Both the position numbers and the translations under genes were made by a program. A stretch of DNA of 64,000 nt, taken from the NCBI GenBank assembly GCA_035714925.1, contig DASTLN010000126.1, positions 5,106 through 69,105 on the forward strand, read 5' to 3'. Positions 25,043 to 55,916 of this stretch are shown here, in pieces. The notes under the pieces are model-generated. The model did no database searches and had not been told where the DNA came from. It saw only the letters and a list, made by a program, of their open reading frames with translations. The first letter of the stretch is position 1, and each line of letters starts with the position of its first letter. The stretch comes from Dehalococcoidia bacterium. GTDB taxonomy: Bacteria > Chloroflexota > Dehalococcoidia > DSTF01 > WHTK01.

Positions 25043-26047
25043 CTAGTGGGCGGCTTGGGGCCAAACAGGTGTAAGACGGGGGAACAGGGCGCCGAGGTCC
25101 CTGCCGACGCCTTTCTCCTGAGCGATCTGGTAAAGACGGAAGGCCGGCAGTGTATCCTGGGCGGCCGTGCCGACCGTCTTCAGTAGCGTAACCTCGTCGG
25201 GGCCCTGTCGGCCCGGCCGGACGCCTCCCACGACGTCTTCTAGCGCGTCGATCTCATCCCAGGTCGTGATCCCCTTCTCTACCTGGCGGGTGATGTCCCA
25301 GGACTCCTCGGGGAACGTCTTCTTCGCATCGACCACCACTCGGTCGGCGCGCCGCACGACCTCATCGTCCAACTCGGCCCGCCCAGCGATCGAGCTGACA
25401 TGCATGCCCGGACTGAGCCACTCGCCCAGCAGTACAGGCGGGCGGTTCGGGCCGGTGACGCCACTCCCGCCGATAACGATGTCAGCCCCGTCCACGGCCT
25501 TCTGCGCGGAATCTACGCCGACGATGTCTATGCCTTCGCCTTTAAACCGCCGCACGAACGCGTCCCGGTGCTCCTCGGTCGGGCTGAAGACCTTGCACTC
25601 GCTGATTTCGAAGAGTGTCGAGTGCGCCGCCAGGCTGGCCGACGCCTGGTTGCCCGAGCCAATGACGCCGAATTTGTGCGAGTCGGATCGGGCGAGGTAC
25701 TTCGATGCGATGGCGGCGACTGCCCCGGTACGACGGTCCCTGAGCGTCTGGGCATCGATCATCATCAACTCCGACTGCTCGTCCCAGAGAATGAGCATGG
25801 GGCTCGGCGACAGGGTGCGCAGGGTGGTGATGCCGTAGGGGCGAAGGTAGGCGATCATGAACGCAGGGCTGCCTGGTGGAAGCCCCGGCATGATGGTGCC
25901 CTCTGGGAGCGGCTCGCGCAGAAACTTGAAGCGAGGCATCTCCTCCGCCTGACCCTGCGCCTGCAGCTTGAGCACCTCCTCGCACGCCTCAATGCACAGC
26001 TCGAAGCTGAGCAGCTTACCCACGTCATCCCGGTTCAGGTAGAGCAT
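25043..26047 (-). CDS. ornithine cyclodeaminase / mu-crystallin family protein
   Basis: 334 aa. OCD/mu-crystallin Rossmann region (KFGVIGSGNQA) and overall family similarity. Confidence 0.85.
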   Translation of the reverse strand: MLYLNRDDVGKLLSFELCIEACEEVLKLQAQGQAEEMPRFKFLREPLPEGTIMPGLPPGSPAFMIAYLRPYGITTLRTLSPSPMLILWDEQSELMMIDAQTLRDRRTGAVAAIASKYLARSDSHKFGVIGSGNQASASLAAHSTLFEISECKVFSPTEEHRDAFVRRFKGEGIDIVGVDSAQKAVDGADIVIGGSGVTGPNRPPVLLGEWLSPGMHVSSIAGRAELDDEVVRRADRVVVDAKKTFPEESWDITRQVEKGITTWDEIDALEDVVGGVRPGRQGPDEVTLLKTVGTAAQDTLPAFRLYQIAQEKGVGRDLGALFPRLTPVWPQAAH

Positions 26048-26139
26048 GATGTCCCCTCACAATGCGCGGCGGAACACCGATGGTGCTCCGCCGCGGCAAT
26101 CACAGATGTCGCTCGGACCTTTAAGCTCGGGCGGCCCGG

Positions 26140-26679
26140 CTACTCGCCCTCGCAGACGACCGTCGTGTCGAAGGCGCCACCCAGGGGTTGGGGTCCCTCG
26201 ACCGAGAGGTACTTGAGCCGCGTGGTGCCGGTGTTCCCCATGCCGTGCCACTGGCCCGGCAGGGCGTGGCAGACGTCGCCGGCCTTGACGGGATGCACCT
26301 CGTCGAGGTCCGGGCCGCCGTAGAACTCGCCCTCTCCTTCGAGGATGACCCAGATCGTCTCGGCGTGGACGTGGTGGTGCAGGTACTTGCGGTTGCCCGG
26401 CTCGATGTAGGCGCACTGGATCAGGTGGACGCTGGGCACCTCTCGCCTATCGACCAGGTTGTTGCCCATGATCTGGCCGATGCCGGGCGTACGGAAGGCC
26501 ACCGGGGGTTTTGTGCCGCCCTTGAGCGCCACCGGCCGGAACTTGTCTTCCTTCTTGTACTCCTCCTCGATGTTGAAGGTGCGTACGGTCTTCTTGTCGC
26601 GCCACTCATCTGCCCGCTTGTGTTCGTCGGGCTCGAACTCCGTGGGCGTGAACGGTGGACGGGACTGCTGCTGGACCAT
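26140..26679 (-). CDS. cupin domain protein
   Basis: 179 aa. Cupin His motifs (HHHVHAETIWVILEGEGEF..., HALPGQWHGMGN). Confidence 0.7.
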   Translation of the reverse strand: MVQQQSRPPFTPTEFEPDEHKRADEWRDKKTVRTFNIEEEYKKEDKFRPVALKGGTKPPVAFRTPGIGQIMGNNLVDRREVPSVHLIQCAYIEPGNRKYLHHHVHAETIWVILEGEGEFYGGPDLDEVHPVKAGDVCHALPGQWHGMGNTGTTRLKYLSVEGPQPLGGAFDTTVVCEGE

Positions 26680-26735
26680 GTCTATCCTCCTCTATGCGCG
26701 TGTACTGCTTCCAAGCCGGACCCGCTGATAACGCC

Positions 26736-27437
26736 TCAGATTGAATCCAGACCTTGAGACTCCATGTGGGCGACGATGTCTGCCTTGAGCGATGAGACAT
26801 GACGGCGCACGATCTCCTCGGCCCGTCCGTCTCTCTGCCGCAACGCCTCGACCAGTTCAGCGTGCTCGTCCTGAGCCTTCTCGGGACGGCCCGGCAGGTT
26901 GAACTGGTGCTCCACCGTGGCAAACCGCACCCGCTGCACCCAGATCCGTATCTCACCCAGCAATCGCAGCAGCCGTTGGTTGTTTGCGGCCTGGGCGACG
27001 CAGTCATGCAAAGCCACGTCGGCGGCGTTGAACGTCGGGTAGTCGTTCCGGTCGATCCCTCGTTTCCCCTGCTGAAGATGATCTTCCAGGTGCGCGAAGT
27101 CTTCGGGTGTCATGCGCGCCTGGGCCAGCCGCGTGACCTCCGCCTCCAGCGCCTCACGCACTTCGAAGATCTCCTCGACATCCCGAATGGTCAGGCGGAC
27201 GACGCGCGCGCCGCGGCGCGGCAGCAGCTCGACGAAACCCTCTGATGCCAACCGCACCATGGCGTCGTGTACCGGCGTCGTGCTGACACCGAGTTGCCGC
27301 GCCAGGTCCGACTCCGTGAGCAGGCTTCCGCCGCCAAACTGCGCGTTGCGAAGCGCCGTCCTCAGCTGCTCGTACGCCAGCTGAGATTGGGAGGGAGGCC
27401 GCTCGATGGCAGCCAGAGTGACCAGAGGTGCGCTCAT
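26736..27437 (-). CDS. GntR family transcriptional regulator (FadR/FCD C-terminal domain)
   Basis: N-terminal GntR wHTH (LLTESDLARQLGVSTTPVHDAMVRLASEG) plus FCD domain. Confidence 0.85.
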   Translation of the reverse strand: MSAPLVTLAAIERPPSQSQLAYEQLRTALRNAQFGGGSLLTESDLARQLGVSTTPVHDAMVRLASEGFVELLPRRGARVVRLTIRDVEEIFEVREALEAEVTRLAQARMTPEDFAHLEDHLQQGKRGIDRNDYPTFNAADVALHDCVAQAANNQRLLRLLGEIRIWVQRVRFATVEHQFNLPGRPEKAQDEHAELVEALRQRDGRAEEIVRRHVSSLKADIVAHMESQGLDSI

Positions 27438-27599: not shown

Positions 27600-28580
27600 T
27601 CAGCGCAGGAGCCGGTCCGCCGTGCCGTGATAGATGGCGTCCTTCTCCGCGCCGGTCAGGTCTTGACGTTCGATTGACTCGATCATGGGCTCATACCCAC
27701 GCGCGAATGGATAATCCGTGCCGAACACGATCTGCGAAGCGCCGACCGTCTGTAGCGCCGCGCTCCAGAGGTTCTGCGCCGGCGTGACCGTGTCGTAGTA
27801 CAGCCTCGTCAGGTAGTCGTGGATCGGCTTCGGCGTCTCGCGCCGCTTGCCGGCTGAGCCCATCGGGCCGGCCCCGCCACCGCCAATTCGGTCCCACGCG
27901 GCCAGCACGAACGCGCCCATGTGCGGCACGATCAGGTTGATGTCCGGGTTCTCCTCGAACACGCCGCTGTTCGCCAGCTTCAGCGTTGCCACGGCGCCGT
28001 CGTATATGAAGCCCGCGCCGGTGGCAATGTCCCAGTCCACGGTCTCTTCGTAAGCGGGGGGCGTTACCGGGTGGAGAAGCACGGTGACTTTCAGCCGGTT
28101 CATCTCGCGATACAACGGCCGAAACCGCTCGTCGTCCAGGCCGACGCCGCGTACGTTCGCGCCCAGCATGACTCCGTGCATTCCCAGGTCATTGATCGTG
28201 CGGTCGAGCTCCTTCAAGGCCGCGTCGACGTGCGGTAGCGGCAGACAGGGCATGCCCTTGAAGCGCTCGGGGTACCTGGCGCAGAGCTCGGCGATGTGGT
28301 CGTTTGTGATGCGGGCCGCTTCGACGGCATCGCTTTCCTTTTCGAAGTAGGCCTGGGGGATCGGGAGAGACAAAGCCTGCACCTGGACGCCAGCGCGGTC
28401 CATGACTTCGAGATGCGCGGCAACGTCCCACATGGCGGGGTTCGTCGAGATCCGGTTATCCAGAAGGAAGGCTGCATGCCGTCCCCAAGGGGTGGAGTCG
28501 TTGTGGACGATGTCGCGAATGAACTCGAGGTAACGCTCGGGATAAATATGGGCGTGCACATCCACGATTCCTGAGGGCAT
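27600..28580 (-). CDS. amidohydrolase-2 family protein (ACMSD/LigW-like metal-dependent hydrolase or decarboxylase)
   Basis: 326 aa. N-terminal VDVHAHIYP and family-typical HxH...D pattern. Confidence 0.8.
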   Translation of the reverse strand: MPSGIVDVHAHIYPERYLEFIRDIVHNDSTPWGRHAAFLLDNRISTNPAMWDVAAHLEVMDRAGVQVQALSLPIPQAYFEKESDAVEAARITNDHIAELCARYPERFKGMPCLPLPHVDAALKELDRTINDLGMHGVMLGANVRGVGLDDERFRPLYREMNRLKVTVLLHPVTPPAYEETVDWDIATGAGFIYDGAVATLKLANSGVFEENPDINLIVPHMGAFVLAAWDRIGGGGAGPMGSAGKRRETPKPIHDYLTRLYYDTVTPAQNLWSAALQTVGASQIVFGTDYPFARGYEPMIESIERQDLTGAEKDAIYHGTADRLLR

Positions 28581-28657: not shown

Positions 28658-29569
28658 TTAATCTGCTCTGGGACGGGAGTTTGCCGAGAGCGGCGGCCCC
28701 AGACCAGGCGCGTGCTCTAAACGCCCCCCGGGTGCGAAGTCCTCGATGCTGAGGTGCTCGGCCCCCGCCTCCAGGCGCATGCCGTGTGCGATCGTGTTGA
28801 ACGACAGGGAATGCATCGTCATCGCCGTCGCCTCGACGATCCCCCGGTCATCGAGACCGCAGGAATGTCGCAGTATCTGCGTCTGATAGGCGATCCAGTA
28901 CGGGCTCTGCCTGAAGAGCGCGACGGCGAAGGCCGCGCAGTTCTTCACCAGCTCATCGAGGACTCCGGGTCCGAAGATGAGCCGGTTCTTCCGCCATGCA
29001 GCCTCCAGGAAACGAGGGTGGTGCGCGAAGGCACGCCATATGTTCGGCGCTCTGTCCACGTTCAGCGCCGAGCCCGCCCACTCGCGGATCTCCGCCAGAG
29101 TAGCCGCCGCGTCCGGCGCGGAGGCTTCATCGAGGAGCTCCACCGAGGCGATGGCGGGCGCAACCTCATTGGGGATGTCAGGCTCCAGCCGGAACGCCGC
29201 GGCTGCTGCCGTCAAGCTCGCCATGTGCTCGGCGATCGCCGCCAGCTCGACTACGGCGCGGTCACTGTTGGTAAGCCGCATCACGGCGGCTGAGTGGGCA
29301 GTAAGTCAATAATTGCAGTGGTTCGTCATCGATACGGCTGTGTGTATTGCCTCCTTGGCGAGCCGCGGCAGTTTACCCTGCAGCATGTAAGCCATGCCTG
29401 TCTCCGCGTGGTTGGCTTCCAGCCAGGCAGGCCAGTGGGTCTGCACACCGAAGATCGAGGGGTTCAGAAGCTGCTCGGGAGATTGCCCCGTGCGTTTCGC
29501 CATACGTTCCAGGATGGCGCGGTCATCTTCGGAGAAGTCGGACAGTTTGGGAGTTCGGAGAGTAGTCAT
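28658..29569 (-). CDS. AhpD/carboxymuconolactone-decarboxylase (CMD) family protein with in-frame TGA at 29306-29308 at the second catalytic Cys: putative selenoprotein
   Basis: Track ORFs 29306..29569 and 28658..29284 are in the same frame, separated by one TGA plus 7 sense codons. Read-through gives ...EAIHTAVSMTNHCNY-U-LTAH..., matching the AhpD core E-x11-C-x-x-C-x-x-x-H. A hairpin begins about 15 nt after the TGA. Confidence 0.6.
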
Positions 29570-30574: not shown

Positions 30575-31699
30575 CTAGAGGTTCCTCAGGGCCGGCATGA
30601 CTTCGCGCGCGAACAGCGTCATCGCCTGCTGCTTCGCTTCAGCTGACCCCATGGGAGCGGCGAACGACACCTCGATCACGCCGCAGCCGATCTCCTCGCG
30701 CAGCCTGGCGACCTGCTCGATGACGCTTGTGGGACCGCCGCAGAGCAGGGTGCCCAGCCGCACGGCGTCCTCCAGTCCGTGAGGCGCCCCTTCTCCCAGG
30801 TTCTGGAATCGCTGTGTCAGGTTGGCGTCTCGCTGACCGAAGAAGCCGGAGGCGGCCACCAACCGGTTCGCGTTCATGATGCCGGCGCCGACCCCGGCGG
30901 CGCCCCTGCCCGCGGACTGCTGGCTCATGTCCGTGAATGCCTTTTCGTCGCTCTCGGCCACGTATGCGTTGAGCCGGTAAAGCACGTCCTCCGGTTGCGG
31001 CGTCCAGCCGAACTGCTCCGCCTTCGCACGATAGAAGCGCGCGGCCTCGGTAGCCAGTGGGAGGTTGGTGAAGGCAAGCCCCAGGGCGGTCCGCTTGCGG
31101 GCGGCGAACTCGCCGGAGTCCTTGCTGGAGCCCGAGGCAATGATCGGCGGCGCAGGCTGCTGGACCGGCCGCGGCCAAATCGAGACGTTGCGGAAGCTGT
31201 AGTGCTCCCCCTCCCAGCCGAACGGCTGGGTGTCCGTCCAGGCGCGGTAGATGAGGTCCCATGCCTCCTCAAAGCGCGAACGCGACTGCGCCGGGTCGAC
31301 GTTGTAGACGAGGTACTCGTAGGGCGCGCCGCGCAGGAGGGCGACGATGACACGACCGTCCGTGAGGTTGTCCAGCATCGCGATCTCTTCCGCGACACGT
31401 ACAGGGTTGGAAAGCGGCAGCAAGGGCCCGAGGATGGCAAGCTTCGCTCTCTGCACGCGTTGGCTCAACGCGGCGGCAAGGACATTGATGCTGGGAGCGA
31501 GGGAGTTGGGCGAGTAGTGATGCTCCGCCAGCGATACCCAGTCGAAGCCGAGCTCGTCCGCCAACTCGTAGTCGGAGAAGCAGGCGTCGCGGGCGCGCAG
31601 CGCCTGCTCCGGGTCAAACTGCTCGTTTGGGACCGGCCAGGTGGCTACAGGGTTGCGAAGTGCGCCGTAAGACATGGAGCCGAAAAAGCAAAACTTCAC
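30575..31699 (-). CDS. LLM-class (luciferase-like) flavin-dependent oxidoreductase
   Basis: Likely GTG start (MKFCFFG...) preceded by AGGAGG. Luciferase-like monooxygenase conserved blocks. The track ORF (to 31960) has an Arg-rich false N-extension. Confidence 0.8.
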   Translation of the reverse strand: MKFCFFGSMSYGALRNPVATWPVPNEQFDPEQALRARDACFSDYELADELGFDWVSLAEHHYSPNSLAPSINVLAAALSQRVQRAKLAILGPLLPLSNPVRVAEEIAMLDNLTDGRVIVALLRGAPYEYLVYNVDPAQSRSRFEEAWDLIYRAWTDTQPFGWEGEHYSFRNVSIWPRPVQQPAPPIIASGSSKDSGEFAARKRTALGLAFTNLPLATEAARFYRAKAEQFGWTPQPEDVLYRLNAYVAESDEKAFTDMSQQSAGRGAAGVGAGIMNANRLVAASGFFGQRDANLTQRFQNLGEGAPHGLEDAVRLGTLLCGGPTSVIEQVARLREEIGCGVIEVSFAAPMGSAEAKQQAMTLFAREVMPALRNL

Positions 31700-36143: not shown

Positions 36144-36743
36144 TTGGCACCGCGGTTGAAGCACGAGAGGGGAAGTCTCGACGTGGACGAGATGAATCAG
36201 GTCCGCGAGCCCCTCGGGACGCCGGATGACATCGCGCTGAAGTATCAGGCGGTCTGTCAGTGGGCCGACCTTCCTGCCCTGCAAGTAAACCTCTGGATCG
36301 TCGAGGCGTACCGGAGTCTGGTTGCGGGACTGCATCGAGTCCTCGATTCAGTCGAACCGGGGATGTCTGCTCCTCGCTTTCTGGCGCTCCGAGACCTCTA
36401 TCTGACACCCGGTCACCGTCTTACTCAGGGCGACATTCAGCGCCGGGGTAAGACCACATCCGGCAGCGTTACGCGACTCGTGGATTCCCTCGAGCAGGAG
36501 GGACTCATCGTGCGCCGGCCGAACCTCACGGACCGCAGGACGAACTACGTTGAGCTGACACCGAGGGGCGTAGAGCTCTGCCACCGGCTGATCCCCGCCG
36601 TGGCGCGCTATTCAGTGGACGTTTGCACAGAGATGGACGAAGCCGACCGACAGCGCTTCGTGAACTTGCTCAAAGCCCTGAGCAGCGGCGCTGAGCAATC
36701 CGCAGCTCAATCTGCGGCCTCGCAGGATTATGATTGGGACTGA
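36144..36743 (+). CDS. MarR family transcriptional regulator
   Basis: MarR wHTH (LTQGDIQRRGKTTSGSVTRLVDSLEQEGLIVRRPNLTDRRTNYVELT). Start position is uncertain. Confidence 0.8.
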   Translation: MAPRLKHERGSLDVDEMNQVREPLGTPDDIALKYQAVCQWADLPALQVNLWIVEAYRSLVAGLHRVLDSVEPGMSAPRFLALRDLYLTPGHRLTQGDIQRRGKTTSGSVTRLVDSLEQEGLIVRRPNLTDRRTNYVELTPRGVELCHRLIPAVARYSVDVCTEMDEADRQRFVNLLKALSSGAEQSAAQSAASQDYDWD

Positions 36744-49194: not shown

Positions 49195-50295
49195 ATGAGA
49201 CTCGTGTCGTTCGAGGTCAGCACCGCGTTGGGACCTGTACGCCGCATCGGGGCTGTAATGGACGCGCAACTGGACGAGGTGGCGCGCATAATCGACCTCA
49301 GCGCGGGGTACTCGCAGCTCCTGCGCGAGGGCGGCGACCCGCGTGGCGGGGAGATCGCCGCCGCCGCGCTGCCGCCGGACATGCTCGCGTTCCTCGAAGG
49401 CGGCGCCCCGGCCATGGACCGCGCTCGCCAGGTCCTCGACTTCGCCGGCCAGCGCAAAGATGGGCAGAGCGATGGCGCTCAACTGATCTTTGCCCGCGGC
49501 GACGTCAAGCTACTGGCGCCGCTGCCGCGGCCGCGTACAATGCGCGACTTCTCCGAGTATGAGGAGCACATGTCGACTCGGACCGGAGCACAGCACAAGC
49601 AGCCCGGCTTCTATCACTTCGCATGCTGCTACAAGGGCAACCCGGACATGGTCTTTGGACCCGACGACCCGATTATCTGGCCCGACTACACGGAGAAGCT
49701 CGACCCGGAGCTCGAGCTGGCCTGCGTCGTCGGCAAGCGCGGAAAGAACCTGACGCCTGAAGAAGCCGGCGACTACATCGCCGGCTACCTTATTTTCTGT
49801 GACGGGTCGGCGCGCGACGTGATGGCCAAGGAGTATTTGGGCCCCTACAAAGCAAAGGACTTCGGGACCAACCTGGGGCCGTGTCTCGTGACCCCGGACG
49901 AGGTCGGCGACGAGCTGAACCTGCGCTGCTCGCTTAAGGTCAACGGCGAAACGTGGTACGAGGGCAACACCGGCTGGAGGCGCAACTATTCAATGCCCCA
50001 ACTCCTGGCCTACGCCTCGGACTCCGAAGAGATACAGCCGGGCGACGTCATATCCGCCGGCACGATCGGCCTCAGCTGCAGCGTCGACTCGGGCAAGTGG
50101 CCGCAACCGGGAGACGTGGTCGAGCAGTGGATCGAGAACATCGGGACGATGACGATGCGCTGCGAGCGGCAACCACGCGAGGTGTCCTATGTGCGCGACG
50201 GCCTGCCTGGCCTGCTGCCCTTGCCGCCCGGTGCGGAGGACTACCCGCAGAAGCTCAAGGACGGCAGCGTGGACCCGCTCGCTTCGCGGCGCTAG
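49195..50295 (+). CDS. FAH family protein
   Basis: ATG at 49195 after GGAAGGA. FAH blocks (ELELACVVGKRG..., FCDGSARD). Confidence 0.85.
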   Translation: MRLVSFEVSTALGPVRRIGAVMDAQLDEVARIIDLSAGYSQLLREGGDPRGGEIAAAALPPDMLAFLEGGAPAMDRARQVLDFAGQRKDGQSDGAQLIFARGDVKLLAPLPRPRTMRDFSEYEEHMSTRTGAQHKQPGFYHFACCYKGNPDMVFGPDDPIIWPDYTEKLDPELELACVVGKRGKNLTPEEAGDYIAGYLIFCDGSARDVMAKEYLGPYKAKDFGTNLGPCLVTPDEVGDELNLRCSLKVNGETWYEGNTGWRRNYSMPQLLAYASDSEEIQPGDVISAGTIGLSCSVDSGKWPQPGDVVEQWIENIGTMTMRCERQPREVSYVRDGLPGLLPLPPGAEDYPQKLKDGSVDPLASRR

Positions 50296-50314: not shown

Positions 50315-50896
50315 ATGGGTGAGGAGCATTACAAGCTGCCGCCGCCGATGCCCAAAGACCCGGACTACGTGTATCCAGCACGCGCGGATCGCGTGTCCAA
50401 CGACGCGCCGCTAGAGTCGGCGCGCCCCGGTCGTGTCACGCCCCATGTGGTCGCCGAGGTCATCCTGCACGAGGGCCAGCTCAAGGAGGGGCGCGTCCAG
50501 GGGTTCACCATCCGCTGCGACGAGGGGCTGTATATTCCGGGCGCCACCGATACGGCGCCGTCACCGCTCGGCTACTTCACGACTGCGATCGGGTTTTGAA
50601 TGGGCACGCATATTGCGGGCGTCGCCCGCAGACAGAACCTGGACTTGAAGGTGAAGATAACCGTCGACGGCGAGTACTTCTCTGAGGGCTCAATCTTGCG
50701 CGGCGACCGTAAGGCCGGTGCCGAGTCGGTTCAAGTCAACGTGGCAGTCGAGGGGGAGCACCCACCAGACCTCATCGCCCGCATCGTCCGGGAGGCAGAG
50801 GCTGGATGCTTCACGATAAACGCTCTGCGCAATCCCTCACCAGTGACCGTCAGCGCGACACTGAACGGCTCGTCCGTTCAGGAGTCGGCGGTCTAG
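50315..50896 (+). CDS. OsmC/Ohr family peroxiredoxin with in-frame TGA at 50597-50599 at the peroxidatic Cys: putative selenoprotein
   Basis: Track ORFs 50189..50599 and 50600..50896 are contiguous and in-frame. ATG at 50315 after GGAGGAG. Read-through gives ...TAIGF-U-MGTHIAGVA... and a downstream AEAGCFTINAL (resolving Cys, OsmC CxxxNAL motif). GC hairpin about 15 nt after the TGA. Confidence 0.6.
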
Positions 50897-50915
50897 CTAC
50901 AGAAGACGAGGACTC

Positions 50916-51815: not shown

Positions 51816-51853
51816 TCGGGGCCGATGTCACAACGAAGGTGGGACACTGAGCG

Positions 51854-52315
51854 ATGCCTGGTCCCTCGGTAAGACGCGTGATCACCGGACATAACGCAGG
51901 AGGGCTCGCGGTTGTTCAGACGGACGAGGTCGCCCGCGGGGCGCGGTTTACCCTGATCTGGACAACGGAGGGCTTTCCGGTGGATAACACGGATCCTCGC
52001 GATGGGGGCGAGCGAGAGGTTGGTATTACCATACCTGGAGGCACGGTGTTTCGCGTAGGCGAGATCGGGCCCGGCGCCAGGTCTCCAATGCACCGCACCA
52101 ACTCCGTCGACTACGGCATCGTCCTCGAAGGCGAGCTGGACATGGAGCTGGACGGCGGCGACCGTGTTCATCTCAAAGCGGGTGACGTGGTGGTCCAGCG
52201 TGGTACGAATCACGCCTGGATAAACGACAGCCACCAGCCTGCCAGGATGGCCTGGATCCTCCTCGACGCCGAGCCGGTCCGCATCGGCGACCGCGTCCTG
52301 GAACCGACGATGTGA
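51854..52315 (+). CDS. cupin domain protein
   Basis: 153 aa. Cupin motifs (RSPMHRTNSVDYGIVLEGEL..., GDVVVQRGTNHAW). Confidence 0.7.
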   Translation: MPGPSVRRVITGHNAGGLAVVQTDEVARGARFTLIWTTEGFPVDNTDPRDGGEREVGITIPGGTVFRVGEIGPGARSPMHRTNSVDYGIVLEGELDMELDGGDRVHLKAGDVVVQRGTNHAWINDSHQPARMAWILLDAEPVRIGDRVLEPTM

Positions 52316-52325
52316 GCCGCGTGAT

Positions 52326-53015
52326 ATGGACAAGGTATTCGACAGCCCGGCTGCAGCCATCCACGACGTCTTCGACGGCGCGACGATCATGTTCGGCGGC
52401 TTCGTGTCGGCCGGCAGCCCGACCAACCTCATCCTCGCCCTGTACGAGAAGGAGACGAAGGACCTCACCGGCATCGCCAACAATATCGGCCTCGGCGACA
52501 AGCTGGACGTCCTCTGCGAGAAGAAGCAGCTGCGCAAGATGATCGCATCATTCGCCATCCGCGCCTCGGCCAAGCGGCAGAGCCTGTTCGAGCAGCTCTA
52601 CGCCAAGGGCGAGGTCGAGTTGGAGCTGGTGCCGCAGGGTACGCTGGCCGAGCGCATCCGCGCGGGCGGCGCCGGCATACCGGCCTTCTACACGCCGACC
52701 GGGGTCGGCACTGTCGTCGCGGAAGGCAAGCGCGTCGAATGCTTCGACGGCCGCGAGTACATCCTGGAGCGCGCGCTGACCGCCGATTTCGCCTTCATCC
52801 GCGCCCACAAAGCCGACCACCACGGCAATCTTATATATAGAAGGGCATCACGAAATTTCAACGAGATCATGGCCACCGCCGCCCGCGTCACCATCGCCGA
52901 GGTCGAGGAGATCGTCGAGCCCGGCGAGCTCGATCCCGAGGCTATCGTCACACCCGCCGTTTACGTCGACCGCATCGTAAAGGCGCCTGCTTATGACGTC
53001 CGCTGGTTTAACTAG
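52326..53015 (+). CDS. 3-oxoacid CoA-transferase subunit A (PcaI/ScoA/AtoD family)
   Basis: 229 aa. Canonical subunit A N-terminus and blocks (GFVSAGSP, ELELVPQGTLAERIRAG). Confidence 0.9.
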   Translation: MDKVFDSPAAAIHDVFDGATIMFGGFVSAGSPTNLILALYEKETKDLTGIANNIGLGDKLDVLCEKKQLRKMIASFAIRASAKRQSLFEQLYAKGEVELELVPQGTLAERIRAGGAGIPAFYTPTGVGTVVAEGKRVECFDGREYILERALTADFAFIRAHKADHHGNLIYRRASRNFNEIMATAARVTIAEVEEIVEPGELDPEAIVTPAVYVDRIVKAPAYDVRWFN

Positions 53016-53658
53016 AGAGCTGATCGCGCTGCGCGTGGCGCGCGAGCTGCGCGACGGCATGGTCGTCAACCTCGGCATCGGCCTGCCCACTCTCGTTGCG
53101 AACTTCCTGCCGGAGGACGCAACCATTGTCCTGCACGCCGAAAACGGCATTCTCGGCTACGGCGGCATCGTCACGGACGAGGCCGAGTTCGATCAGGACC
53201 TGATCAACGCCGGCGGCCAGCCGGTGACGCTCGCCCCGGGCGCGTCGTTCTTCGACAGCGCGACGTCCTTCGCCATGATCCGCGGCGGTCACGTCGACGT
53301 CACCGTGCTGGGTGGGCTGCAGGTCTCGGCGCAGGGTGACCTGGCCAACTGGGCCGTGGCGGGCCGGGGCGGCGGCGCCATCGGCGGCGCTATGGACCTG
53401 GCGGCGGGCGCCAAGCGCGTCATCGTCGCCATGGAGCACACCACGCGTGACGGCGAGCCGCGCATCCTGGAGCAGTGCACCTATCCGCTGACCGCGCAGC
53501 GCTGCGTTGACCTCATTGTCACGAACCTTGCAGTCATCGAGGTAACCGGCCAGGGGCTGGCGCTTCGCGAGGTCGCGCCGGGCGTTAGCGCCGATGAAGT
53601 GCGGGCGGCGCCGGCAGCGCGGCTCATAATTGAAGACGTGAAGGTCGTGGACCTCTAA
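52993..53658 (+). CDS. 3-oxoacid CoA-transferase subunit B (PcaJ/ScoB/AtoA family)
   Basis: 221 aa. Subunit B blocks ([10 protein letters not shown], catalytic-Glu region AMEHTTRDG). 23-nt overlap with subunit A. Confidence 0.9.
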
Positions 53659-53695
53659 CCGTGCAGGGCGCCTGAGCGGTGCAGGCGCCGGGAGA

Positions 53696-54877
53696 ATGGC
53701 AATGGATGAAGTAGTCGTAGTTAGCGGCGCCAGGACGGCCATCGGCCGTTTCCAGGGAGGCTTCGCCGAGACGCCGGCGTCGGATCTCGCCGCGGCCGTA
53801 ATCAAAGCTGCCGTCGAGCGAAGCGGTCTGCAGCCCGAGCAGGTCGACCAGGTTGTGCTGGGCTGCGTCGGCCAGGTGATGGAGGACGCTTACATCGCCC
53901 GTCACGCCGCCGTGAAGGCGGGTCTGCCGATCGAGGTGCCGGCCTACACGGTCAACCGTATCTGCGGTTCCGGCCTGGAGGCGATCAACACGGCCGCACG
54001 CTGGATCGAGTGCGGCGACGCCGAGGTTGTCGTCGCAGGCGGCGCCGAGAACATGACGCGGCTGCCGCACTACCTGCGCGCCGCCCGCTCTGGCTATCGC
54101 CTTGGCGACGGTAAGCTGGAGGACGGCATCCTGCACGTGCTGAGCGACCCCTTCAACCGCTACCACATGGGCGTCACGGCGGAGAACCTGGCGGCCGAGT
54201 TCGAGATATCGCGCGAGGTGCAGGACGAATATGCGCTGCGCAGCCAGCGACGCGCCTCCGCCGCCCTAGCCGCCGGCCGCTTCCAGGACGAAATCGTGCC
54301 GCTAGAGGTACACAACGGCCGCGAGACATTGGTCGTCGACCGCGACGAGCACCCCCGCGAGACCTCGACGGAGGCGCTGGCGAAGCTCTCGCCGGCGTTC
54401 AAAGAAGGCGGCAGCGTAACGGCCGGCAACGCCAGCGGCATCAACGACGGCGCCGCGGCGGTCATGCTCATGTCCGCTGCGAAGGCGGGCGAACTTGGCG
54501 TGGCGCCGAAGCTGCGCCTGGTCGCCAGGGCGGAGGCCGGGGTGCGGCCGGAGATCATGGGCTCAGGGCCGATCCCGGCCGTCGAGAAGGCGCTGGCCAA
54601 AGCCGGATTGACCGTCGACGATCTCGACGTTGTAGAGCTAAACGAGGCCTTCGGCGCGGTCGCTGCCGCCTGCAGCCTCGCGCTGGGACTCGATCCCGAA
54701 AAGGTGAACCCTAACGGTGGCGCGATTGCGCTGGGCCATCCCGTCGGCGCTTCCGGCGCAATCCTGGTCGTCAAGCTGATGTACGAGCTAGAGCGCCGCC
54801 AGGGCCGCCACGGCATGGTCACTCTTTGCATCGGCGGCGGGCAGGGCATCGCCACCATCTTCGAGCGCGTTAGTTGA
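53696..54877 (+). CDS. acetyl-CoA C-acyltransferase (thiolase; PcaF/FadA-like)
   Basis: 393 aa. Thiolase active-site regions ([38 protein letters not shown]). Confidence 0.9.
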
Positions 54878-54887
54878 GGAGAGAGCG

Positions 54888-55916
54888 GTGAGAGTAGTCG
54901 TTTACGGGCCGGAGCGCAGGGTTGGCATTCTGGAAGGCGATAGCGTGGTCGACGCCGAGCGCGCCTACGCCAAGCTGGCGCACGAAGTCCAGGACCACCC
55001 CGCGCCGTACAGGGCGGCCACCGCGACCGCGCCGGCGGACCTCGAGGCCTTCATCCAGCTCGGCGACAGGGCGATTGATGCCGCACACGAGGCCGTCGAG
55101 TATCTAGGGAAGCGCCGCGCGGATCAGTCTGGGCCTAGAGGCGAGCCGGTCGTCTTCCCACTTTCGGAAGCGAGGCTGCGCGCGCCGCTGGCCCACCGCG
55201 GCGTCAAGCTATGTATGGCCGGGGCGAACTACGCCGACCACCTCTTCGACATGATGCGGGCGCAGGACCCCAGCGTGACCATGGCGCAGGTCAAGGAAAG
55301 GTCGCGCGAGCGCGGCATCGGCGGGTTCTGGAAGCACCCGTCGTTCGTTGCGGACCCCGAGGCCGACATCGTCTATCCCGCAAAGACCCGCTACCTCGAC
55401 TACGAGGGCGAGGTAGCCATCGTAGTCGGGAAAGCGGCAAAGGACGCGAGTGCAGGCGACCTGCTGGACTACATCTGGGGCTACACGCTGCAGAACGACT
55501 GGAGTGCCCGCGATCAACGCGACAACGCCGTGGGCACGCTTTCCTTTGCCGGCATGAAGAACTGGGACGGCTCATCGTCGATTGGGCCGTGCATCGTCGT
55601 TGGCGAGATCAAGGACCCGCAGGACATCGACTTTCAGACCACCGTCAACGGCGAGCTGCGCCAGAACGGCAACACCAGCGGGATGACCTTCAGCTTCGCG
55701 GAGTACCTGGAGTACGCGACCCGGGATGTCACATTCACCGCCGGAGACATGATCGCCGCCGGCACCTGCAAGGGCACGGCGATGGACTCGACGCCTCGTA
55801 TCGAAGGCGGCGGTTTCGAGAACGACAAGCTGTTCTTGAACGCGGGCGACGTGGTCGAGGTGTCGTCGCCGCAGATCGGCGCGCTGCGCAACCGGGTGGT
55901 GGCGAAGAAGGCTTAG
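54888..55916 (+). CDS. FAH family protein (third paralog)
   Basis: GTG start after GAGGAGAGAG. FAH blocks (YEGEVAIVVGKAAKD, YTLQNDWSARD). Confidence 0.85.
   Translation: MRVVVYGPERRVGILEGDSVVDAERAYAKLAHEVQDHPAPYRAATATAPADLEAFIQLGDRAIDAAHEAVEYLGKRRADQSGPRGEPVVFPLSEARLRAPLAHRGVKLCMAGANYADHLFDMMRAQDPSVTMAQVKERSRERGIGGFWKHPSFVADPEADIVYPAKTRYLDYEGEVAIVVGKAAKDASAGDLLDYIWGYTLQNDWSARDQRDNAVGTLSFAGMKNWDGSSSIGPCIVVGEIKDPQDIDFQTTVNGELRQNGNTSGMTFSFAEYLEYATRDVTFTAGDMIAAGTCKGTAMDSTPRIEGGGFENDKLFLNAGDVVEVSSPQIGALRNRVVAKKA

What the first reader, a model, noticed from the sequence alone, without database searches (positions are those of the whole stretch)
25043..55916. About 31-kb aromatic/heterocyclic catabolic gene island built from mirrored paralogous modules, with selenium-dependent peroxidases embedded in the operons
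The 26 consecutive genes between the two repeat copies form three regulator-headed units. The GntR unit has amidohydrolase-2, cupin and ornithine-cyclodeaminase genes. The MarR unit has SBP, MetE-like, ACAD-like oxygenase, LLM oxidoreductase and a hydrolase. A LysR gene sits between two divergent 9-gene operons. The left LysR operon runs ACAD-like oxygenase, extradiol dioxygenase, amidohydrolase-2, YciI, HpaB-like, MetE-like, MBL, FAH, amidohydrolase-2. The right LysR operon runs SBP, FAH, OsmC(Sec), MBL, cupin, CoA-transferase A/B, thiolase, FAH. Paralog counts are unusual: 3 FAH, 3 amidohydrolase-2, 2 MetE-like Zn-methyltransferases, 2 ACAD-type oxygenases, 2 MBL, 2 cupin, 2 family-5 SBPs. 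The combination of extradiol cleavage, flavin hydroxylases, LigW/ACMSD-type decarboxylases and a PcaIJF-like lower pathway points to degradation of substituted (possibly methoxylated or carboxylated) aromatics, with the MetE-like proteins as candidate O-demethylases. Placing Sec-containing AhpD- and OsmC-type peroxidases inside the oxygenase operons suggests built-in hydroperoxide detoxification for uncoupled flavin monooxygenases. This gene combination does not correspond to a textbook pathway operon.
Basis: inference. Interest (0 to 1): 0.75.

Follow-up and report, generated by a model that had tools for sequence, protein, structure and literature searches.

The report
Phenolic-compound breakdown cluster with two selenoproteins
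An uncultured soil Chloroflexi bacterium carries a tightly packed 30-gene cluster that most likely imports and breaks down substituted phenolic compounds, has two selenium-containing peroxidase-type genes built into its operons, and contains two methionine-synthase-like zinc enzymes whose role is unknown.

Summary
There are 30 genes, not 26, in four operons.

Both in-frame TGA codons are well supported as selenocysteine. They give the published motifs CXXU (AhpD-like) and UXXT (OsmC-like). Homologues carry Cys or a TGA at the same column, and a hairpin follows each TGA. Both belong to known selenoprotein families.

"Mirrored paralogous modules" is overstated. The paralogues are only 26-43% identical, the two cupins are not detectably related, and there is no inverted DNA repeat.

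"Island" is unproven. The flanking repeats are real, and a tRNA-Arg 3' fragment adjoins the left copy. But one repeat block recurs outside the region, there is no integrase and no G+C shift. Related Dehalococcoidia carry shuffled versions of the same gene set.

Best reading: a funnel-type catabolic supercluster for phenolic acids or phenols. Lipoprotein binding proteins come first, then decarboxylases, three two-component flavin hydroxylases, an extradiol dioxygenase of an uncharacterised subfamily, FAH-type C-C hydrolases, and a 3-oxoacid CoA-transferase plus thiolase. No enzyme reaches an equivalog cut-off, so the substrate stays unknown.

The MetE-like proteins keep the zinc site and the positions I take to be MetE's homocysteine site, but not its folate-stacking Trp. 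An O-demethylase role remains speculation. I rate this a new variant of a known kind, of moderate interest.

The parts
24432..24956 (.). Left copy of the flanking intergenic repeat. It has an extra ~220-nt insert that holds a truncated tRNA-Arg(TCT) 3' fragment at 24598-24645 (minus strand).
   Evidence: The fragment matches a real tRNA-Arg(tct) gene in L048. ARAGORN finds no complete tRNA.
25043..26047 (-). Ornithine cyclodeaminase/mu-crystallin family enzyme; last gene of the GntR operon.
   Evidence: Pfam OCD_Mu_crystall, 149 bits. NCBIfam hits are all below cut-off.
26140..26679 (-). Cupin_2 protein (cupin1).
   Evidence: Pfam, 45 bits. 94% identical in relative L006.
26736..27437 (-). GntR/FCD regulator.
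   Evidence: Pfam GntR + FCD.
27600..28580 (-). Amidohydrolase-2 (AH2_a), ACMSD/decarboxylase-like; last gene of the MarR-headed operon.
   Evidence: Pfam. PDB best hit ACMSD, 108 bits. Follows the hydrolase gene directly in L006.
28658..29569 (-). AhpD-like two-domain selenoprotein. In-frame TGA at 29306-29308; motif C-N-Y-U-L-T-A-H.
   Evidence: TIGR00778 scores 33.3, above its cut-off of 27.8. Cys aligns with the TGA column in full-length homologues. A hairpin lies 17 nt after the UGA. The CXXU motif of the family is given in PMC1088965.
29767..30573 (-). Alpha/beta hydrolase, distantly PcaD/BphD/HsaD-like.
   Evidence: Pfam. NCBIfam hits are all below cut-off.
30575..31699 (-). Luciferase-like monooxygenase/oxidoreductase.
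   Evidence: Pfam Bac_luciferase. NCBIfam subfamilies are below cut-off.
31741..32877 (-). ACAD-fold flavin monooxygenase, oxygenase component (ACAD_a), HsaA/C2-HpaH-like.
   Evidence: NF045629 HsaA 274 bits (cut-off 450); SfnB only 54 bits.
32936..34126 (-). MetE-like single-barrel zinc protein (MetE_a).
   Evidence: Pfam Meth_synt_2. Zn ligands aligned to E. coli MetE. Homologues of ~59% identity are widespread.
34184..36001 (-). Family-5 solute-binding lipoprotein (SBP_a).
   Evidence: Pfam SBP_bac_5. RR motif plus LAAC lipobox.
36192..36743 (+). MarR regulator, divergent from SBP_a.
   Evidence: Pfam MarR. 183-aa gene call.
36773..37717 (-). Amidohydrolase-2 (AH2_b); last gene of the left LysR operon.
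   Evidence: Pfam. Only weak PDB matches, 84 bits.
37714..38700 (-). FAH-family enzyme (FAH_a).
   Evidence: Pfam, 166 bits. NCBIfam below cut-offs.
38724..39572 (-). Metallo-beta-lactamase-fold hydrolase (MBL_a).
   Evidence: Pfam. NCBIfam.
39583..40824 (-). MetE-like single-barrel zinc protein (MetE_b).
   Evidence: Pfam. PDB 1YPX/MetE. H277/C279/E311/C375 are invariant.
40831..42390 (-). HpaB/TftD-type two-component flavin monooxygenase, oxygenase component.
   Evidence: Pfam HpaB_N + HpaB. PDB 4-HPA, 4-nitrophenol and chlorophenol monooxygenases, 137-170 bits.
42404..42853 (-). YCII-family protein.
   Evidence: Pfam YCII, 29 bits. No PDB sequence match.
42872..43858 (-). Amidohydrolase-2 (AH2_c), gamma-resorcylate/5-carboxyvanillate decarboxylase-like.
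   Evidence: PDB 3S4T 230 bits, 2DVT 227 bits, LigW 194 bits.
43955..44908 (-). Two-domain type I extradiol dioxygenase-like VOC protein of the 3B59 subfamily.
   Evidence: Pfam Glyoxalase x2. PDB 3B59 266 bits. TIGR03211 scores 111, below its cut-off of 320.
44932..46092 (-). ACAD-fold flavin monooxygenase, oxygenase component (ACAD_b), HsaA/C2-like; first gene of the left operon.
   Evidence: NF045629, 312 bits (cut-off 450).
46212..47126 (+). LysR regulator between the two divergent operons.
   Evidence: Pfam HTH_1 + LysR_substrate. 304-aa gene call.
47231..49114 (+). Family-5 solute-binding lipoprotein (SBP_b); lowest G+C of the block.
   Evidence: Pfam. Lipobox. G+C 0.58.
49195..50295 (+). 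FAH-family enzyme (FAH_b).
   Evidence: Pfam. PDB HpaG/FAHD1-like.
50315..50896 (+). OsmC-related selenoprotein. In-frame TGA at 50597-50599; motif U-M-G-T.
   Evidence: NF041052 OsmC_like_Se scores 119.3, above its cut-off of 95. Homologue L009 has a TGA at the same column and 47% identity over 188 aa. Hairpins follow the UGA in both. The UXXT motif is given in PMC1088965.
50916..51815 (+). Metallo-beta-lactamase-fold hydrolase (MBL_b).
   Evidence: Pfam. NCBIfam.
51854..52315 (+). Monocupin of the 3ES1 subfamily (cupin2).
   Evidence: PDB 3ES1, 151 bits. 50% identical to a cupin that sits next to an FAH gene on N. aromaticivorans pNL2.
52326..53658 (+). 3-oxoacid CoA-transferase subunits A (52326-53015) and B (52993-53658).
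   Evidence: TIGR02429 scores 279.5 (cut-off 128.5); TIGR02428 scores 304.2 (cut-off 243.6).
53696..54877 (+). Thiolase, closer to the BktB/acetoacetyl-CoA type than to PcaF.
   Evidence: PRK09051 530 bits against PcaF 405-411 bits; TIGR01930 passes its cut-off.
54888..55916 (+). FAH-family enzyme (FAH_c).
   Evidence: NCBIfam HpaG-C 129 bits, below its cut-off of 276. PDB.
56627..56955 (.). Right copy of the flanking intergenic repeat, inside a 1.3-kb gene-free stretch (55917-57252).

Best explanation
The block is a four-operon catabolic supercluster of an uncultured Dehalococcoidia (Chloroflexota) bacterium, probably from soil. It channels substituted phenolic compounds (hydroxy- or carboxy-substituted, possibly methylated) into acetyl-CoA.

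SHOWN by sequence evidence:
(a) Four units. GntR-cupin-OCD (27437 to 25043). MarR, divergent from SBP-MetE_a-ACAD_a-LLM-hydrolase-AhpD(Sec)-AH2_a (36001 to 27600). LysR, divergent from ACAD_b-extradiol-AH2_c-YciI-HpaB-MetE_b-MBL-FAH-AH2_b (46092 to 36773). SBP-FAH-OsmC(Sec)-MBL-cupin-CoA-transferase A/B-thiolase-FAH (47231 to 55916).
(b) The family assignment of every gene.
(c) Both SBPs are exported lipoproteins.
(d) Both UGA codons sit at the redox-active Cys position of known selenoprotein families.
(e) The same genes recur, reshuffled, in related populations. HpaB-MetE-MBL-FAH-AH2 is a conserved five-gene core.

INFERRED order of events:
1. The SBPs deliver substrates to an Opp/Dpp-type ABC importer encoded elsewhere.
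2. The amidohydrolase-2 enzymes (AH2_c resembles gamma-resorcylate/LigW decarboxylases) remove ring carboxyl groups.
3. Three two-component flavin monooxygenases (two HsaA/C2-type, one HpaB/TftD-type), using a flavin reductase encoded outside the window, make a catechol or hydroxyquinol-type ring.
4. The 3B59-type extradiol dioxygenase opens the ring.
5. FAH-family enzymes, with the MBL and alpha/beta hydrolases, isomerise and hydrolyse the polyketo-acid fission product to pyruvate or a small acid plus a 3-oxoacid. This is acetoacetate or 3-oxoadipate; the thiolase type and the acetoacetate-CoA ligase in an actinobacterial analogue favour acetoacetate.
6. The ScoAB/PcaIJ-type transferase and the thiolase convert the 3-oxoacid to acetyl-CoA.
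7. The AhpD-like (CXXU) and OsmC-like (UXXT) selenoproteins are co-transcribed thiol peroxidase-type proteins. They probably deal with peroxides or quinone stress from these oxygenases.
8. The two MetE-like proteins keep MetE's zinc site and the three positions I take to be its homocysteine-binding site. They lack the folate-stacking Trp and the N-terminal barrel. They most likely transfer an alkyl (methyl) group from a non-folate donor to a homocysteine-like thiol. Their place in the pathway is not established.
For: - Family assignments.
- Decarboxylase-like AH2_c: 230 bits to gamma-resorcylate decarboxylase.
- HpaB: 170 bits to 4-HPA and 4-nitrophenol monooxygenases.
- ACAD-like genes score 312 and 274 bits to HsaA against 54-58 bits to SfnB.
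- Extradiol enzyme: 266 bits to 3B59.
- CoA-transferase subunits above subfamily cut-offs, and thiolase at 530 bits to the BktB type.
- Operon-tight spacing and lipoprotein signals.
- Relatives: L006 fuses the LysR, MarR and GntR unit genes into one 18-kb run at 57-94% amino-acid identity. L099 and the P0014 contig keep HpaB-MetE-MBL-FAH-AH2 next to extradiol, ACAD, cupin-FAH, CoA-transferase and thiolase genes. The P0014 contig adds a Flavin_Reduct gene.
- Analogous modules in cultured bacteria. C. occultum pCOCCU: hydroxylase-VOC (51%)-FAH-cupin-acetoacetate-CoA ligase, plus thiolase and OCD. Novosphingobium EMRT-2: VOC-FAD oxidoreductase-FAH-MBL-FAH-amidohydrolase. N. aromaticivorans pNL2: FAH-cupin (50%), and amidohydrolase-hydroxylase-VOC-FAH-hydrolase. 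Polymorphobacter from lichen.
- Selenocysteine.
- MetE-like site mapping.
Against: - No enzyme reaches an equivalog cut-off, so no substrate can be named.
- No flavin reductase, ABC permease/ATPase, ring-fission-product dehydrogenase, or maleylacetate reductase is in the window.
- The extradiol subfamily (3B59) and the cupin subfamily (3ES1) are structural-genomics proteins whose PDB entries name no function.
- Across phyla the MetE-like genes mostly sit in unrelated neighbourhoods. Their presence here could be for another reason.
- The order of steps is inferred from family chemistry, not shown.
- SBP family 5 usually binds peptides, opines or nickel, so the imported compound may not be a simple phenolic acid.
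Confidence: 0.6

Rival explanations
1. The block is a horizontally acquired genomic island. It would have been inserted at a tRNA-Arg gene and bounded by att-like direct repeats.
For: - Direct repeats lie at both borders.
- A truncated tRNA-Arg(TCT) 3' end lies inside the left repeat region.
- The same repeat plus tRNA fragment borders the cluster in relative L006.
- SBP_b has a lower G+C, 0.58.
Against: - No integrase, transposase or complete tRNA is in the window.
- G+C is 0.62-0.68 both inside and outside the block.
- One repeat block recurs at 20.8 kb, outside the block, and the short motif is multi-copy.
- The right repeat copy lacks the tRNA fragment.
- Related populations carry rearranged versions rather than an empty site.
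- The empty-site search was uninformative.
Confidence: 0.2
2. The genes form not one pathway but several unrelated catabolic operons that merely lie side by side. For example, the GntR-cupin-OCD unit would serve an amino-acid-derived cyclic imine, and the MarR unit a different compound.
For: - Four separate regulators.
- OCD-family enzymes usually act on cyclic imino acids (NCBIfam names).
- Relatives carry only subsets: L006 lacks HpaB/MBL/FAH, and L099 lacks the SBP/LLM part within the contig held.
Against: - In L006, genes of three of the units are contiguous in one run.
- The C. occultum analogue also has an OCD gene beside its hydroxylase-VOC-FAH-cupin module.
- Only one ring-cleavage enzyme and one CoA-transferase/thiolase pair serve the whole block.
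Confidence: 0.2
3. The cluster is for organosulfur scavenging or methionine metabolism. ACAD-like SfnB/DszC-type and LLM SsuD/SfnG-type oxygenases would work with MetE-like methionine synthases and an SBP.
For: - ACAD-like plus LLM plus SBP combinations are typical of sulfur-starvation operons (established knowledge).
- The MetE-like proteins keep the positions I take to be the homocysteine site.
- There are weak hits to SfnB, SsuD and SfnG.
Against: - HsaA/C2 scores are 274-312 bits, against 54-58 bits for SfnB and 28-35 bits for DszC.
- The LLM scores only 40-43 bits to SsuD/SfnG.
- An extradiol dioxygenase, decarboxylases, FAH enzymes and a CoA-transferase/thiolase pair have no role in sulfur scavenging.
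Confidence: 0.05
4. The two in-frame TGA codons are genuine stops. The genes would then be split genes or pseudogenes, not selenoproteins.
For: - No Sec machinery gene or tRNA-Sec is in the window.
- Rfam finds no SECIS.
- The hairpin energies are not exceptional against shuffles (z = -0.7 to -1.1).
Against: - The TGA falls exactly at the second redox residue of CxxC-xxxH (AhpD) and at the peroxidatic Cys of OsmC.
- Protein conservation continues across the TGA in a 47%-identical homologue that also has a TGA there.
- Distant full-length homologues have Cys at that column.
- The motifs equal the published CXXU and UXXT.
- Hairpins start 14-17 nt after the UGA in three genes, with different sequences.
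Confidence: 0.05

Closest known systems
AhpD-like (CXXU) and OsmC-like (UXXT) prokaryotic selenoprotein families (Zhang et al. 2005, PMC1088965; NCBIfam NF041052 'OsmC-related (seleno)protein')
   Same: - Same folds and same redox motifs, with Sec at the same position.
- The OsmC gene passes the curated NF041052 cut-off.
- The AhpD core-domain model is passed.
- A SECIS-like hairpin follows each UGA.
   Different: - Here the genes sit inside long oxygenase-rich catabolic operons of a Chloroflexota bacterium.
- The AhpD-like protein is a two-domain, 303-aa form.
- It is a lineage-specific insertion into its operon.
Gamma-resorcylate/resorcinol pathways (Rhizobium gra genes, Rhodococcus tsd genes)
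   Same: An amidohydrolase-2 decarboxylase closely resembling gamma-resorcylate decarboxylase lies next to a two-component flavin hydroxylase.
   Different: The known pathways cleave hydroxyquinol with an intradiol dioxygenase and use maleylacetate reductase (my knowledge of those pathways). Neither family is present here. Instead there are an extradiol VOC enzyme and three FAH-family enzymes.
Homoprotocatechuate (hpa) meta-cleavage pathway
   Same: HpaB-family hydroxylase, extradiol dioxygenase and HpaG-like FAH-family enzymes.
   Different: - All scores are far below equivalog cut-offs (152/480, 96/321, 129/276).
- No HpaE dehydrogenase, HpaH hydratase, HpaI aldolase or HpaC reductase.
Hydroxyquinol-type extradiol routes: the trihydroxytoluene oxygenase step of 2,4-dinitrotoluene degradation (Johnson et al. 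2000, cited in PMC3757077) and the classical orcinol pathway
   Same: Extradiol cleavage of a trihydroxylated ring, followed by hydrolysis of a polyketo acid. The role of FAH-type isomerase/hydrolases in those routes is from my own knowledge, not tested here.
   Different: No nitro-group enzymes are present. Sequence relation to DntD/DntG was not tested. The substrate here is unknown.
Uncharacterised hydroxylase-VOC-FAH-cupin(-MBL-amidohydrolase) modules on plasmids of cultured Novosphingobium, Polymorphobacter and Corynebacterium. These include the loci encoding close relatives (45-50% identical) of the structural-genomics proteins 3B59 and 3ES1.
   Same: The same subfamilies of extradiol enzyme (45-51% identity) and cupin (29-50%), with FAH, MBL and amidohydrolase neighbours and acetoacetate-activating enzymes.
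   Different: - Those use single-component FAD hydroxylases, with TonB or MFS uptake.
- They have no MetE-like genes in the module, no SBPs and no selenoproteins.
Cobalamin-independent methionine synthase MetE and the short 'core-MetE'/YxjG-like proteins (PDB 1YPX)
   Same: A single (beta-alpha)8 barrel with His-Cys-Glu-Cys zinc ligands. The Ser/Glu/Asp positions that I take to be MetE's homocysteine site are also conserved.
   Different: - No N-terminal barrel.
- The position I take to be the folate-stacking Trp is replaced by Phe or Ala.
- There is an insertion of ~50-70 residues.
- Scores are far below all methionine-synthase cut-offs (105/406).
- The genes are embedded in oxygenase operons.

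Membership tests
OsmC-related selenoprotein (NF041052) | Profile score at or above the curated cut-off | tested here: met
   119.3 bits against a cut-off of 95.
OsmC-related selenoprotein (NF041052) | In-frame UGA at the peroxidatic Cys position (UXXT motif), with coding conservation beyond it | tested here: met
   U-M-G-T at 50597-50608. Homologue L009 has a TGA in the same column and 47% identity over 188 aa. The motif is given in PMC1088965.
OsmC-related selenoprotein (NF041052) | Bacterial SECIS hairpin shortly after the UGA | tested here: inconclusive
   A 7-bp hairpin lies 17 nt after the UGA, and an 8-bp hairpin lies 14 nt after the UGA in L009 with a different sequence. Energies are not exceptional (z = -1.1), and there is no Rfam hit.
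AhpD-like selenoprotein (CXXU) | AhpD core domain with a Cys-x-x-Cys/Sec-x-x-x-His motif | tested here: met
   C-N-Y-U-L-T-A-H. TIGR00778 scores 33.3 against a cut-off of 27.8. The TIGR01926 subfamily scores 44, below its cut-off of 81.8.
AhpD-like selenoprotein (CXXU) | Homologues carry Cys (or UGA) at the same column | tested here: met
   P0132, P0147, P0172 and P0200 have GCxxC, with the second Cys aligned to the UGA. The closest homologues are gene calls that begin just after the UGA.
Any selenoprotein | The genome encodes selA, selB, selD and tRNA-Sec | not testable with these tools
   None of these is in the 64-kb window. The rest of the genome is not available.
Homoprotocatechuate (hpa) pathway | HpaB, HpaD and HpaG at equivalog level, plus HpaE, HpaH, HpaI and HpaC | tested here: not met
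   152/480, 96/321 and 129/276 bits. No aldehyde dehydrogenase, hydratase, aldolase or flavin reductase is in the window.
Beta-ketoadipate lower pathway (PcaIJF) | PcaI/PcaJ-type CoA-transferase | tested here: met
   TIGR02429 scores 279.5 (cut-off 128.5) and TIGR02428 scores 304.2 (cut-off 243.6). These subfamilies also include acetoacetate-specific ScoAB.
Beta-ketoadipate lower pathway (PcaIJF) | PcaF 3-oxoadipyl-CoA thiolase at equivalog level | tested here: not met
   TIGR02430 scores 405 against a cut-off of 597. The BktB-type model scores higher, at 530 bits.
Gamma-resorcylate (gra/tsd) pathway | Gamma-resorcylate decarboxylase | tested here: inconclusive
   230 and 227 bits to solved gamma-resorcylate decarboxylases, but also 194 bits to LigW. 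Substrate specificity cannot be read from this.
Gamma-resorcylate (gra/tsd) pathway | Intradiol hydroxyquinol 1,2-dioxygenase and maleylacetate reductase | tested here: not met
   Neither family is among the 30 genes or the flanks.
Steroid ring-A/B HsaABCD module | HsaA, HsaC and HsaD at equivalog level, plus HsaB reductase | tested here: not met
   HsaA 312 and 274 bits (cut-off 450), HsaC 68 (450), HsaD 54 (400). No reductase is present.
Cobalamin-independent methionine synthase MetE | His-Cys-Glu-Cys zinc site | tested here: met
   H277, C279, E311 and C375 align with E. coli MetE H641, C643, E665 and C726, and are invariant in all 18 aligned sequences.
Cobalamin-independent methionine synthase MetE | Two-barrel architecture, folate site and equivalog-level score | tested here: not met
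   Single barrel of ~400 aa. E. coli W561 aligns with Phe or Ala. The best methionine-synthase model scores 105, below its cut-off of 406.
Genomic island | Flanking direct repeats at a tRNA gene | tested here: inconclusive
   Repeats are present, but one block recurs outside the region. Only a tRNA-Arg 3' fragment is found, and at one end only.
Genomic island | Integrase or mobility genes, deviating composition, absence from close relatives | tested here: not met
   No integrase. G+C is like the flanks. Relatives carry rearranged versions. The empty-site search was uninformative.

The most novel reading that the evidence does not exclude
The MetE-like proteins may be a new class of aerobic, corrinoid- and folate-independent zinc alkyl-transferases working in aromatic catabolism. 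This includes the five-gene core HpaB-MetE-MBL-FAH-amidohydrolase, which recurs in three Dehalococcoidia contigs, and the tandem paralogue pairs seen in other phyla. One possibility is that they remove the methyl group of methoxylated phenolics, or another alkyl substituent, by transfer to homocysteine or a similar thiol. That would link lignin- or humic-derived methoxy groups directly to methionine. The evidence does not exclude this. The zinc site and the positions I take to be the homocysteine site are intact, while the folate-stacking Trp and the N-terminal barrel are missing. In L099 a MetE-like gene occupies the slot held here by the ring decarboxylase. A 40% homologue lies among LigM/metF/ligAB genes in Novosphingobium.
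Probability: 0.12. Interest if true: 0.8.

Novelty: new variant of a known kind. Interest (0 to 1): 0.45.

Why it matters
Dehalococcoidia are known mainly as anaerobic organohalide respirers. This cluster adds concrete, operon-level evidence that uncultured members, probably soil-dwelling, carry extensive oxygen-dependent machinery for phenolic compounds, which are the kind of molecules that make up lignin- and humus-derived soil carbon.

It also points to three testable unknowns:
- an uncharacterised extradiol-dioxygenase/cupin/FAH module, shared with cultured sphingomonads and actinobacteria in which it could be studied;
- a large family of MetE-like zinc enzymes with a non-folate donor site;
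- the placement of selenocysteine peroxidase-type genes inside oxygenase operons, a possible case of pathway-linked oxidative-stress protection.

None of these is a new principle. Each is a tractable gap in enzyme annotation.

Tried and rejected
1. Rfam, whole window at gathering threshold, and the two UGA regions at E<=10: no SECIS or other RNA family.
2. Homologue search with the OsmC protein (U replaced by C): only three truncated hits, because gene callers cut at the UGA. I used their DNA instead.
I searched with the post-UGA part instead.
4. Guilt by association for the MetE-like family across 80 GTDB genomes: neighbours are highly variable and no conserved partner emerged. A single conserved operon across phyla is therefore rejected.
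5. Literature searches returned nothing. One covered 'cobalamin-independent methionine synthase' with Chloroflexi, aromatic and amidohydrolase; another covered 'MetE-like' with demethylase. PDB codes 8SKY and 8SM7/8SM9 led to unrelated work.
6. YciI against PDB by sequence: no hit. The TftG (dehydrochlorinase) parallel remains a lead from the literature only.
7. Empty-site test for the island, using the flanking hydrolase gene in metagenome contigs. The nearest relatives (83% amino-acid identity) share neither flank, so the test is uninformative.
8. Sulfur-scavenging reading: rejected on scores.
9. cupin1 plus AH2_a as a 3-hydroxyanthranilate dioxygenase/ACMSD pair: considered. cupin1 hits only the generic Cupin_2 model, and AraC_binding below its cut-off, so this is not supported.
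10. AhpD-like protein as a PcaC-type decarboxylase partnering the PcaD-like hydrolase: considered, because the two genes are adjacent and PcaDC fusions exist. The CxxU-xxxH redox motif argues for an oxidoreductase.
11. The promoter/terminator scan gave nothing above shuffles.

Full report
SOURCE AND SETTING

The window matches an ENA metagenome contig (k141_4310402, 74.8 kb), which covers window positions from about 21.9 kb to 64 kb. An identical MetE-like protein is named by NCBI as coming from a 'MAG TPA: Dehalococcoidia bacterium'. Another identical one lies on a 64,295-bp JGI contig. The closest species-representative genome is a Chloroflexota MAG labelled SMAG_U9707, at only 58% identity for that protein. 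The soil origin is my inference from such isolate labels and from the titles of related MAG records. G+C is 0.62-0.68 inside and outside the block, dipping to 0.58 only over the SBP gene at 47-49 kb.

CHECK OF THE OBSERVATION

I count 30 genes, not 26, in four units:
- D: GntR-cupin1-OCD (27437 to 25043, minus strand).
- C: MarR (plus strand), divergent from SBP_a-MetE_a-ACAD_a-LLM-alpha/beta hydrolase-AhpD(Sec)-AH2_a (36001 to 27600).
- A: LysR (plus strand), divergent from ACAD_b-extradiol-AH2_c-YciI-HpaB-MetE_b-MBL_a-FAH_a-AH2_b (46092 to 36773).
- B: downstream of LysR, SBP_b-FAH_b-OsmC(Sec)-MBL_b-cupin2-CoA-transferase A/B-thiolase-FAH_c (47231 to 55916).

Intergenic gaps inside operons A and B are -23 to 98 bp. 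In relative L006 it follows the hydrolase gene by 2 bp while GntR-cupin-OCD is inverted, so it belongs to operon C.

'MIRRORED PARALOGOUS MODULES'

All-against-all BLASTP gives these identities: ACAD a/b 41%, MetE a/b 43%, SBP a/b 39%, FAH a/b 41%, FAH_c 29%, amidohydrolase-2 27-33%, MBL 26%. The two cupins show no match at E<=1e-3. Each MetE-like paralogue has much closer relatives in other genomes (60-90% for b, about 59% for a). No inverted DNA repeat of 40 nt or more exists. The paralogues are therefore old members of large families, recruited or retained together. They are not a recent mirrored duplication.

THE TWO SELENOPROTEIN CANDIDATES

OsmC-like gene (50315-50896):
- The in-frame TGA at 50597-50599 gives G-F-U-M-G-T-H.
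- With Cys substituted, the protein passes NCBIfam NF041052, 'OsmC-related (seleno)protein', at 119.3 bits against a cut-off of 95.
- Metagenomic homologue L009 has a TGA in the same column, and 47% identity runs across it for 188 residues.

AhpD-like gene (28658-29569, minus strand):
- The TGA at 29306-29308 gives C-N-Y-U-L-T-A-H, the CxxC-xxxH active-site pattern of AhpD. The AhpD core-domain model is passed.
- In a search of 1.8 billion representatives, the closest homologues are gene calls that begin just after the UGA. Full-length distant homologues carry GCxxC with the second Cys aligned to the UGA.

Evidence common to both:
- CXXU for AhpD-like and UXXT for OsmC-like are exactly the motifs tabulated for these selenoprotein families by Zhang et al. 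2005 (PMC1088965).
- Hairpins with G/U-containing loops start 14-17 nt after the UGA in the two window genes and in L009, with different sequences. Their energies are unremarkable, and Rfam has no hit.
- Sec-insertion genes are not in the window, so that requirement is untested.

I regard Sec as very probable. Both proteins are members of known families.

WHAT THE ENZYMES RESEMBLE

- Both ACAD-fold proteins are HsaA/C2-HpaH-like oxygenase components (312 and 274 bits; SfnB only 54-58 bits).
- HpaB is closest to 4-hydroxyphenylacetate, 4-nitrophenol and chlorophenol monooxygenases (137-170 bits).
- AH2_c is close to solved gamma-resorcylate decarboxylases (230 and 227 bits) and to LigW (194 bits). 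AH2_a is ACMSD-like (108 bits). AH2_b is distant from everything solved.
- The extradiol enzyme matches the structural-genomics protein 3B59 at 266 bits and catechol 2,3-dioxygenases only weakly. cupin2 matches 3ES1 at 151 bits.
- The three FAH proteins resemble HpaG/HpcE, acylpyruvases and diketo-acid hydrolases.
- The CoA-transferase subunits pass the PcaI/ScoA and PcaJ/ScoB subfamily cut-offs. The thiolase is nearer the BktB/acetoacetyl type (530 bits) than PcaF (405-411 bits).
- No pathway-specific equivalog cut-off is reached by any enzyme.
- Both SBPs have a twin-arginine region and an LAAC lipobox. No ABC permease or ATPase, flavin reductase or integrase lies in the window.

RELATED LOCI

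Three related Dehalococcoidia contigs carry reshuffled versions:
- L006 (57-94% protein identity) has LysR, ACAD_b, extradiol, SBP, AH2_c, MetE_b, YciI, ACAD_a, SBP, LLM, hydrolase, AH2_a and then OCD-cupin1-GntR in one 18-kb run. It lacks HpaB, MBL, FAH and the AhpD gene.
- L099 (79-89% for the shared genes) has extradiol, a third MetE-like paralogue in the slot held here by AH2_c, YciI, HpaB, MetE_b, MBL, FAH, AH2_b, ACAD_a and, further on, CoA-transferase A/B.
- The P0014 contig has LysR/SBP, HpaB-MetE-MBL-FAH-AH2, two VOC genes, ACAD, a Flavin_Reduct gene, cupin-FAH and thiolase-CoA-transferase.

So the gene set is a lineage-typical, modular supercluster, with HpaB-MetE-MBL-FAH-AH2 as a conserved core. 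The AhpD gene is an insertion specific to this genome.

In cultured bacteria, the same extradiol and cupin subfamilies lie in analogous but unnamed modules:
- Corynebacterium occultum pCOCCU: hydroxylase-VOC (51%)-FAH-cupin-acetoacetate-CoA ligase, with a thiolase and an OCD gene nearby.
- Novosphingobium sp. EMRT-2: VOC-FAD oxidoreductase-FAH-MBL-FAH-amidohydrolase.
- N. aromaticivorans pNL2: FAH-cupin (50%), and amidohydrolase-hydroxylase-VOC-FAH-hydrolase.
- A lichen-derived Polymorphobacter.

These parallels support a shared chemistry: hydroxylation, extradiol cleavage, FAH-type C-C hydrolysis, and a 3-oxoacid product, probably acetoacetate.

THE MetE-LIKE PROTEINS

Aligned with the C-terminal barrel of E. 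coli MetE, all 18 sequences keep the zinc ligands (H641/C643/E665/C726 = H277/C279/E311/C375). They also keep S433, E484 and D599. From my knowledge of MetE structures, these three bind the homocysteine carboxylate and amino groups.

W561, which I take to be the folate-stacking Trp, is Phe or Ala here. The N-terminal barrel is absent, and a ~50-70-residue insertion is present. Methionine-synthase models score far below cut-off.

The family is very large and found in many phyla, mostly in unrelated neighbourhoods. It sometimes occurs as tandem paralogue pairs. In Novosphingobium pentaromativorans pLA3, a 40% homologue sits next to a LigM-type aminomethyltransferase, metF, purU, folD and ligAB.

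This fits a thiol alkyl-transferase with a non-folate donor.

ISLAND QUESTION

- The border repeats are real. The left one encloses a tRNA-Arg(TCT) 3' fragment (24598-24645) that matches a genuine tRNA-Arg elsewhere. The same repeat plus fragment borders the cluster in L006.
- Against an island: one repeat block recurs at 20.8 kb; a short motif matched within 3 mismatches at 4 sites against 0.01 expected; there is no integrase, no complete tRNA and no compositional shift.
- The empty-site search found no syntenic relatives.
- Past mobility or repeat-mediated rearrangement is possible but not shown.

VERDICT

The most likely function is a funnel-type catabolic system for substituted phenolics with extradiol ring cleavage and a 3-oxoacid lower pathway (confidence about 0.6). 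Two known-family selenoprotein oxidoreductases are co-transcribed with it. The protective role proposed for them is plausible, since faulty oxygenase reactions are a documented source of endogenous oxidative stress in a catabolic pathway (abstract of PMC3757077). It remains untested, and it is not conserved for the AhpD gene.

The cluster is a new variant of a known kind. Its most interesting open point is the function of the MetE-like zinc enzymes.

Noticed in passing
window 24598-24645 (minus strand); also L006 ~19030-19080: A truncated tRNA-Arg(TCT) 3' end (T-arm, acceptor stem, CCA) with no 5' half. It lies inside the left border repeat and again at the border of the related cluster in L006. 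It matches a complete tRNA-Arg gene in L048. It could be an old integration scar.
   Followed up: partly
window 20873, 24473 (variants ~24497, ~24665, ~24723), 56669, 56690: A short motif, GCAGCAGAACGGTT, with its variant GGCGGCGTAACGGTTT, recurs in intergenic DNA. The pattern search found 4 matches within 3 mismatches against 0.01 expected; the variant copies were read by eye. It could be a regulator binding site or a small repeat element. A 90-nt block at 24681-24770 recurs at 20834-20924.
   Followed up: partly
L011 1484-3822; L099 1616-6143; L100 5685-8188; L101 8001-10757: MetE-like (Meth_synt_2) genes often come as pairs of two diverged paralogues, side by side or a few genes apart. This is seen in Dehalococcoidia and in other phyla. 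It hints that the two types work together.
   Followed up: partly
L091 (Novosphingobium pentaromativorans pLA3) 8995-18254: A 40%-identical MetE-like gene sits with an NTF2-like gene and an IclR regulator. Next to them are a LigM-type aminomethyltransferase, metF, purU, ligAB and folD, the tetrahydrofolate-dependent aryl O-demethylation/C1 region. A cupin2 homologue lies about 10 kb away.
   Followed up: no
P0014 contig (no DNA held), genes at 13653-13994 and 13991-14155: The flavin reductase gene beside the related cluster is called as two overlapping pieces (113 + 54 aa). This could be a frameshift, a sequencing error or recoding. The window itself has no flavin reductase, although it has three or four flavin-dependent two-component oxygenases.
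   Followed up: no
window 55917-57252 and 24023-25042: Unusually long gene-free stretches (1.3 kb and ~1 kb) border the cluster and hold the repeats. The ORF at 23925-24470 (181 aa) has no Pfam match.
   Followed up: partly
window 60697-61062, and beyond the window on contig k141_4310402 (L098 640-3419): The right-hand neighbourhood is rich in thiol-redox genes: a glutaredoxin, two Redoxin/AhpC-TSA proteins, a Thioredoxin_3 protein and a Crp-family regulator. I did not check them for in-frame UGA codons.
   Followed up: no
window 47231-49114: The SBP_b gene has the lowest G+C of the window (0.58 against ~0.64) and a long Gly/Ser-rich linker after the lipobox. In L006 there are three SBP_bac_5 genes in the equivalent cluster.
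   Followed up: no
L096 (Polymorphobacter megasporae plasmid, isolated from a lichen) 5365-15937: A lichen-associated sphingomonad carries TonB receptor-VOC-FAD oxidoreductase-hydrolase-FAH and SDR-cupin-amidohydrolase (38% to AH2_c). This would fit lichen or fungal resorcylic acids (orsellinate, depsides) as one candidate substrate class for this enzyme set.
   Followed up: no
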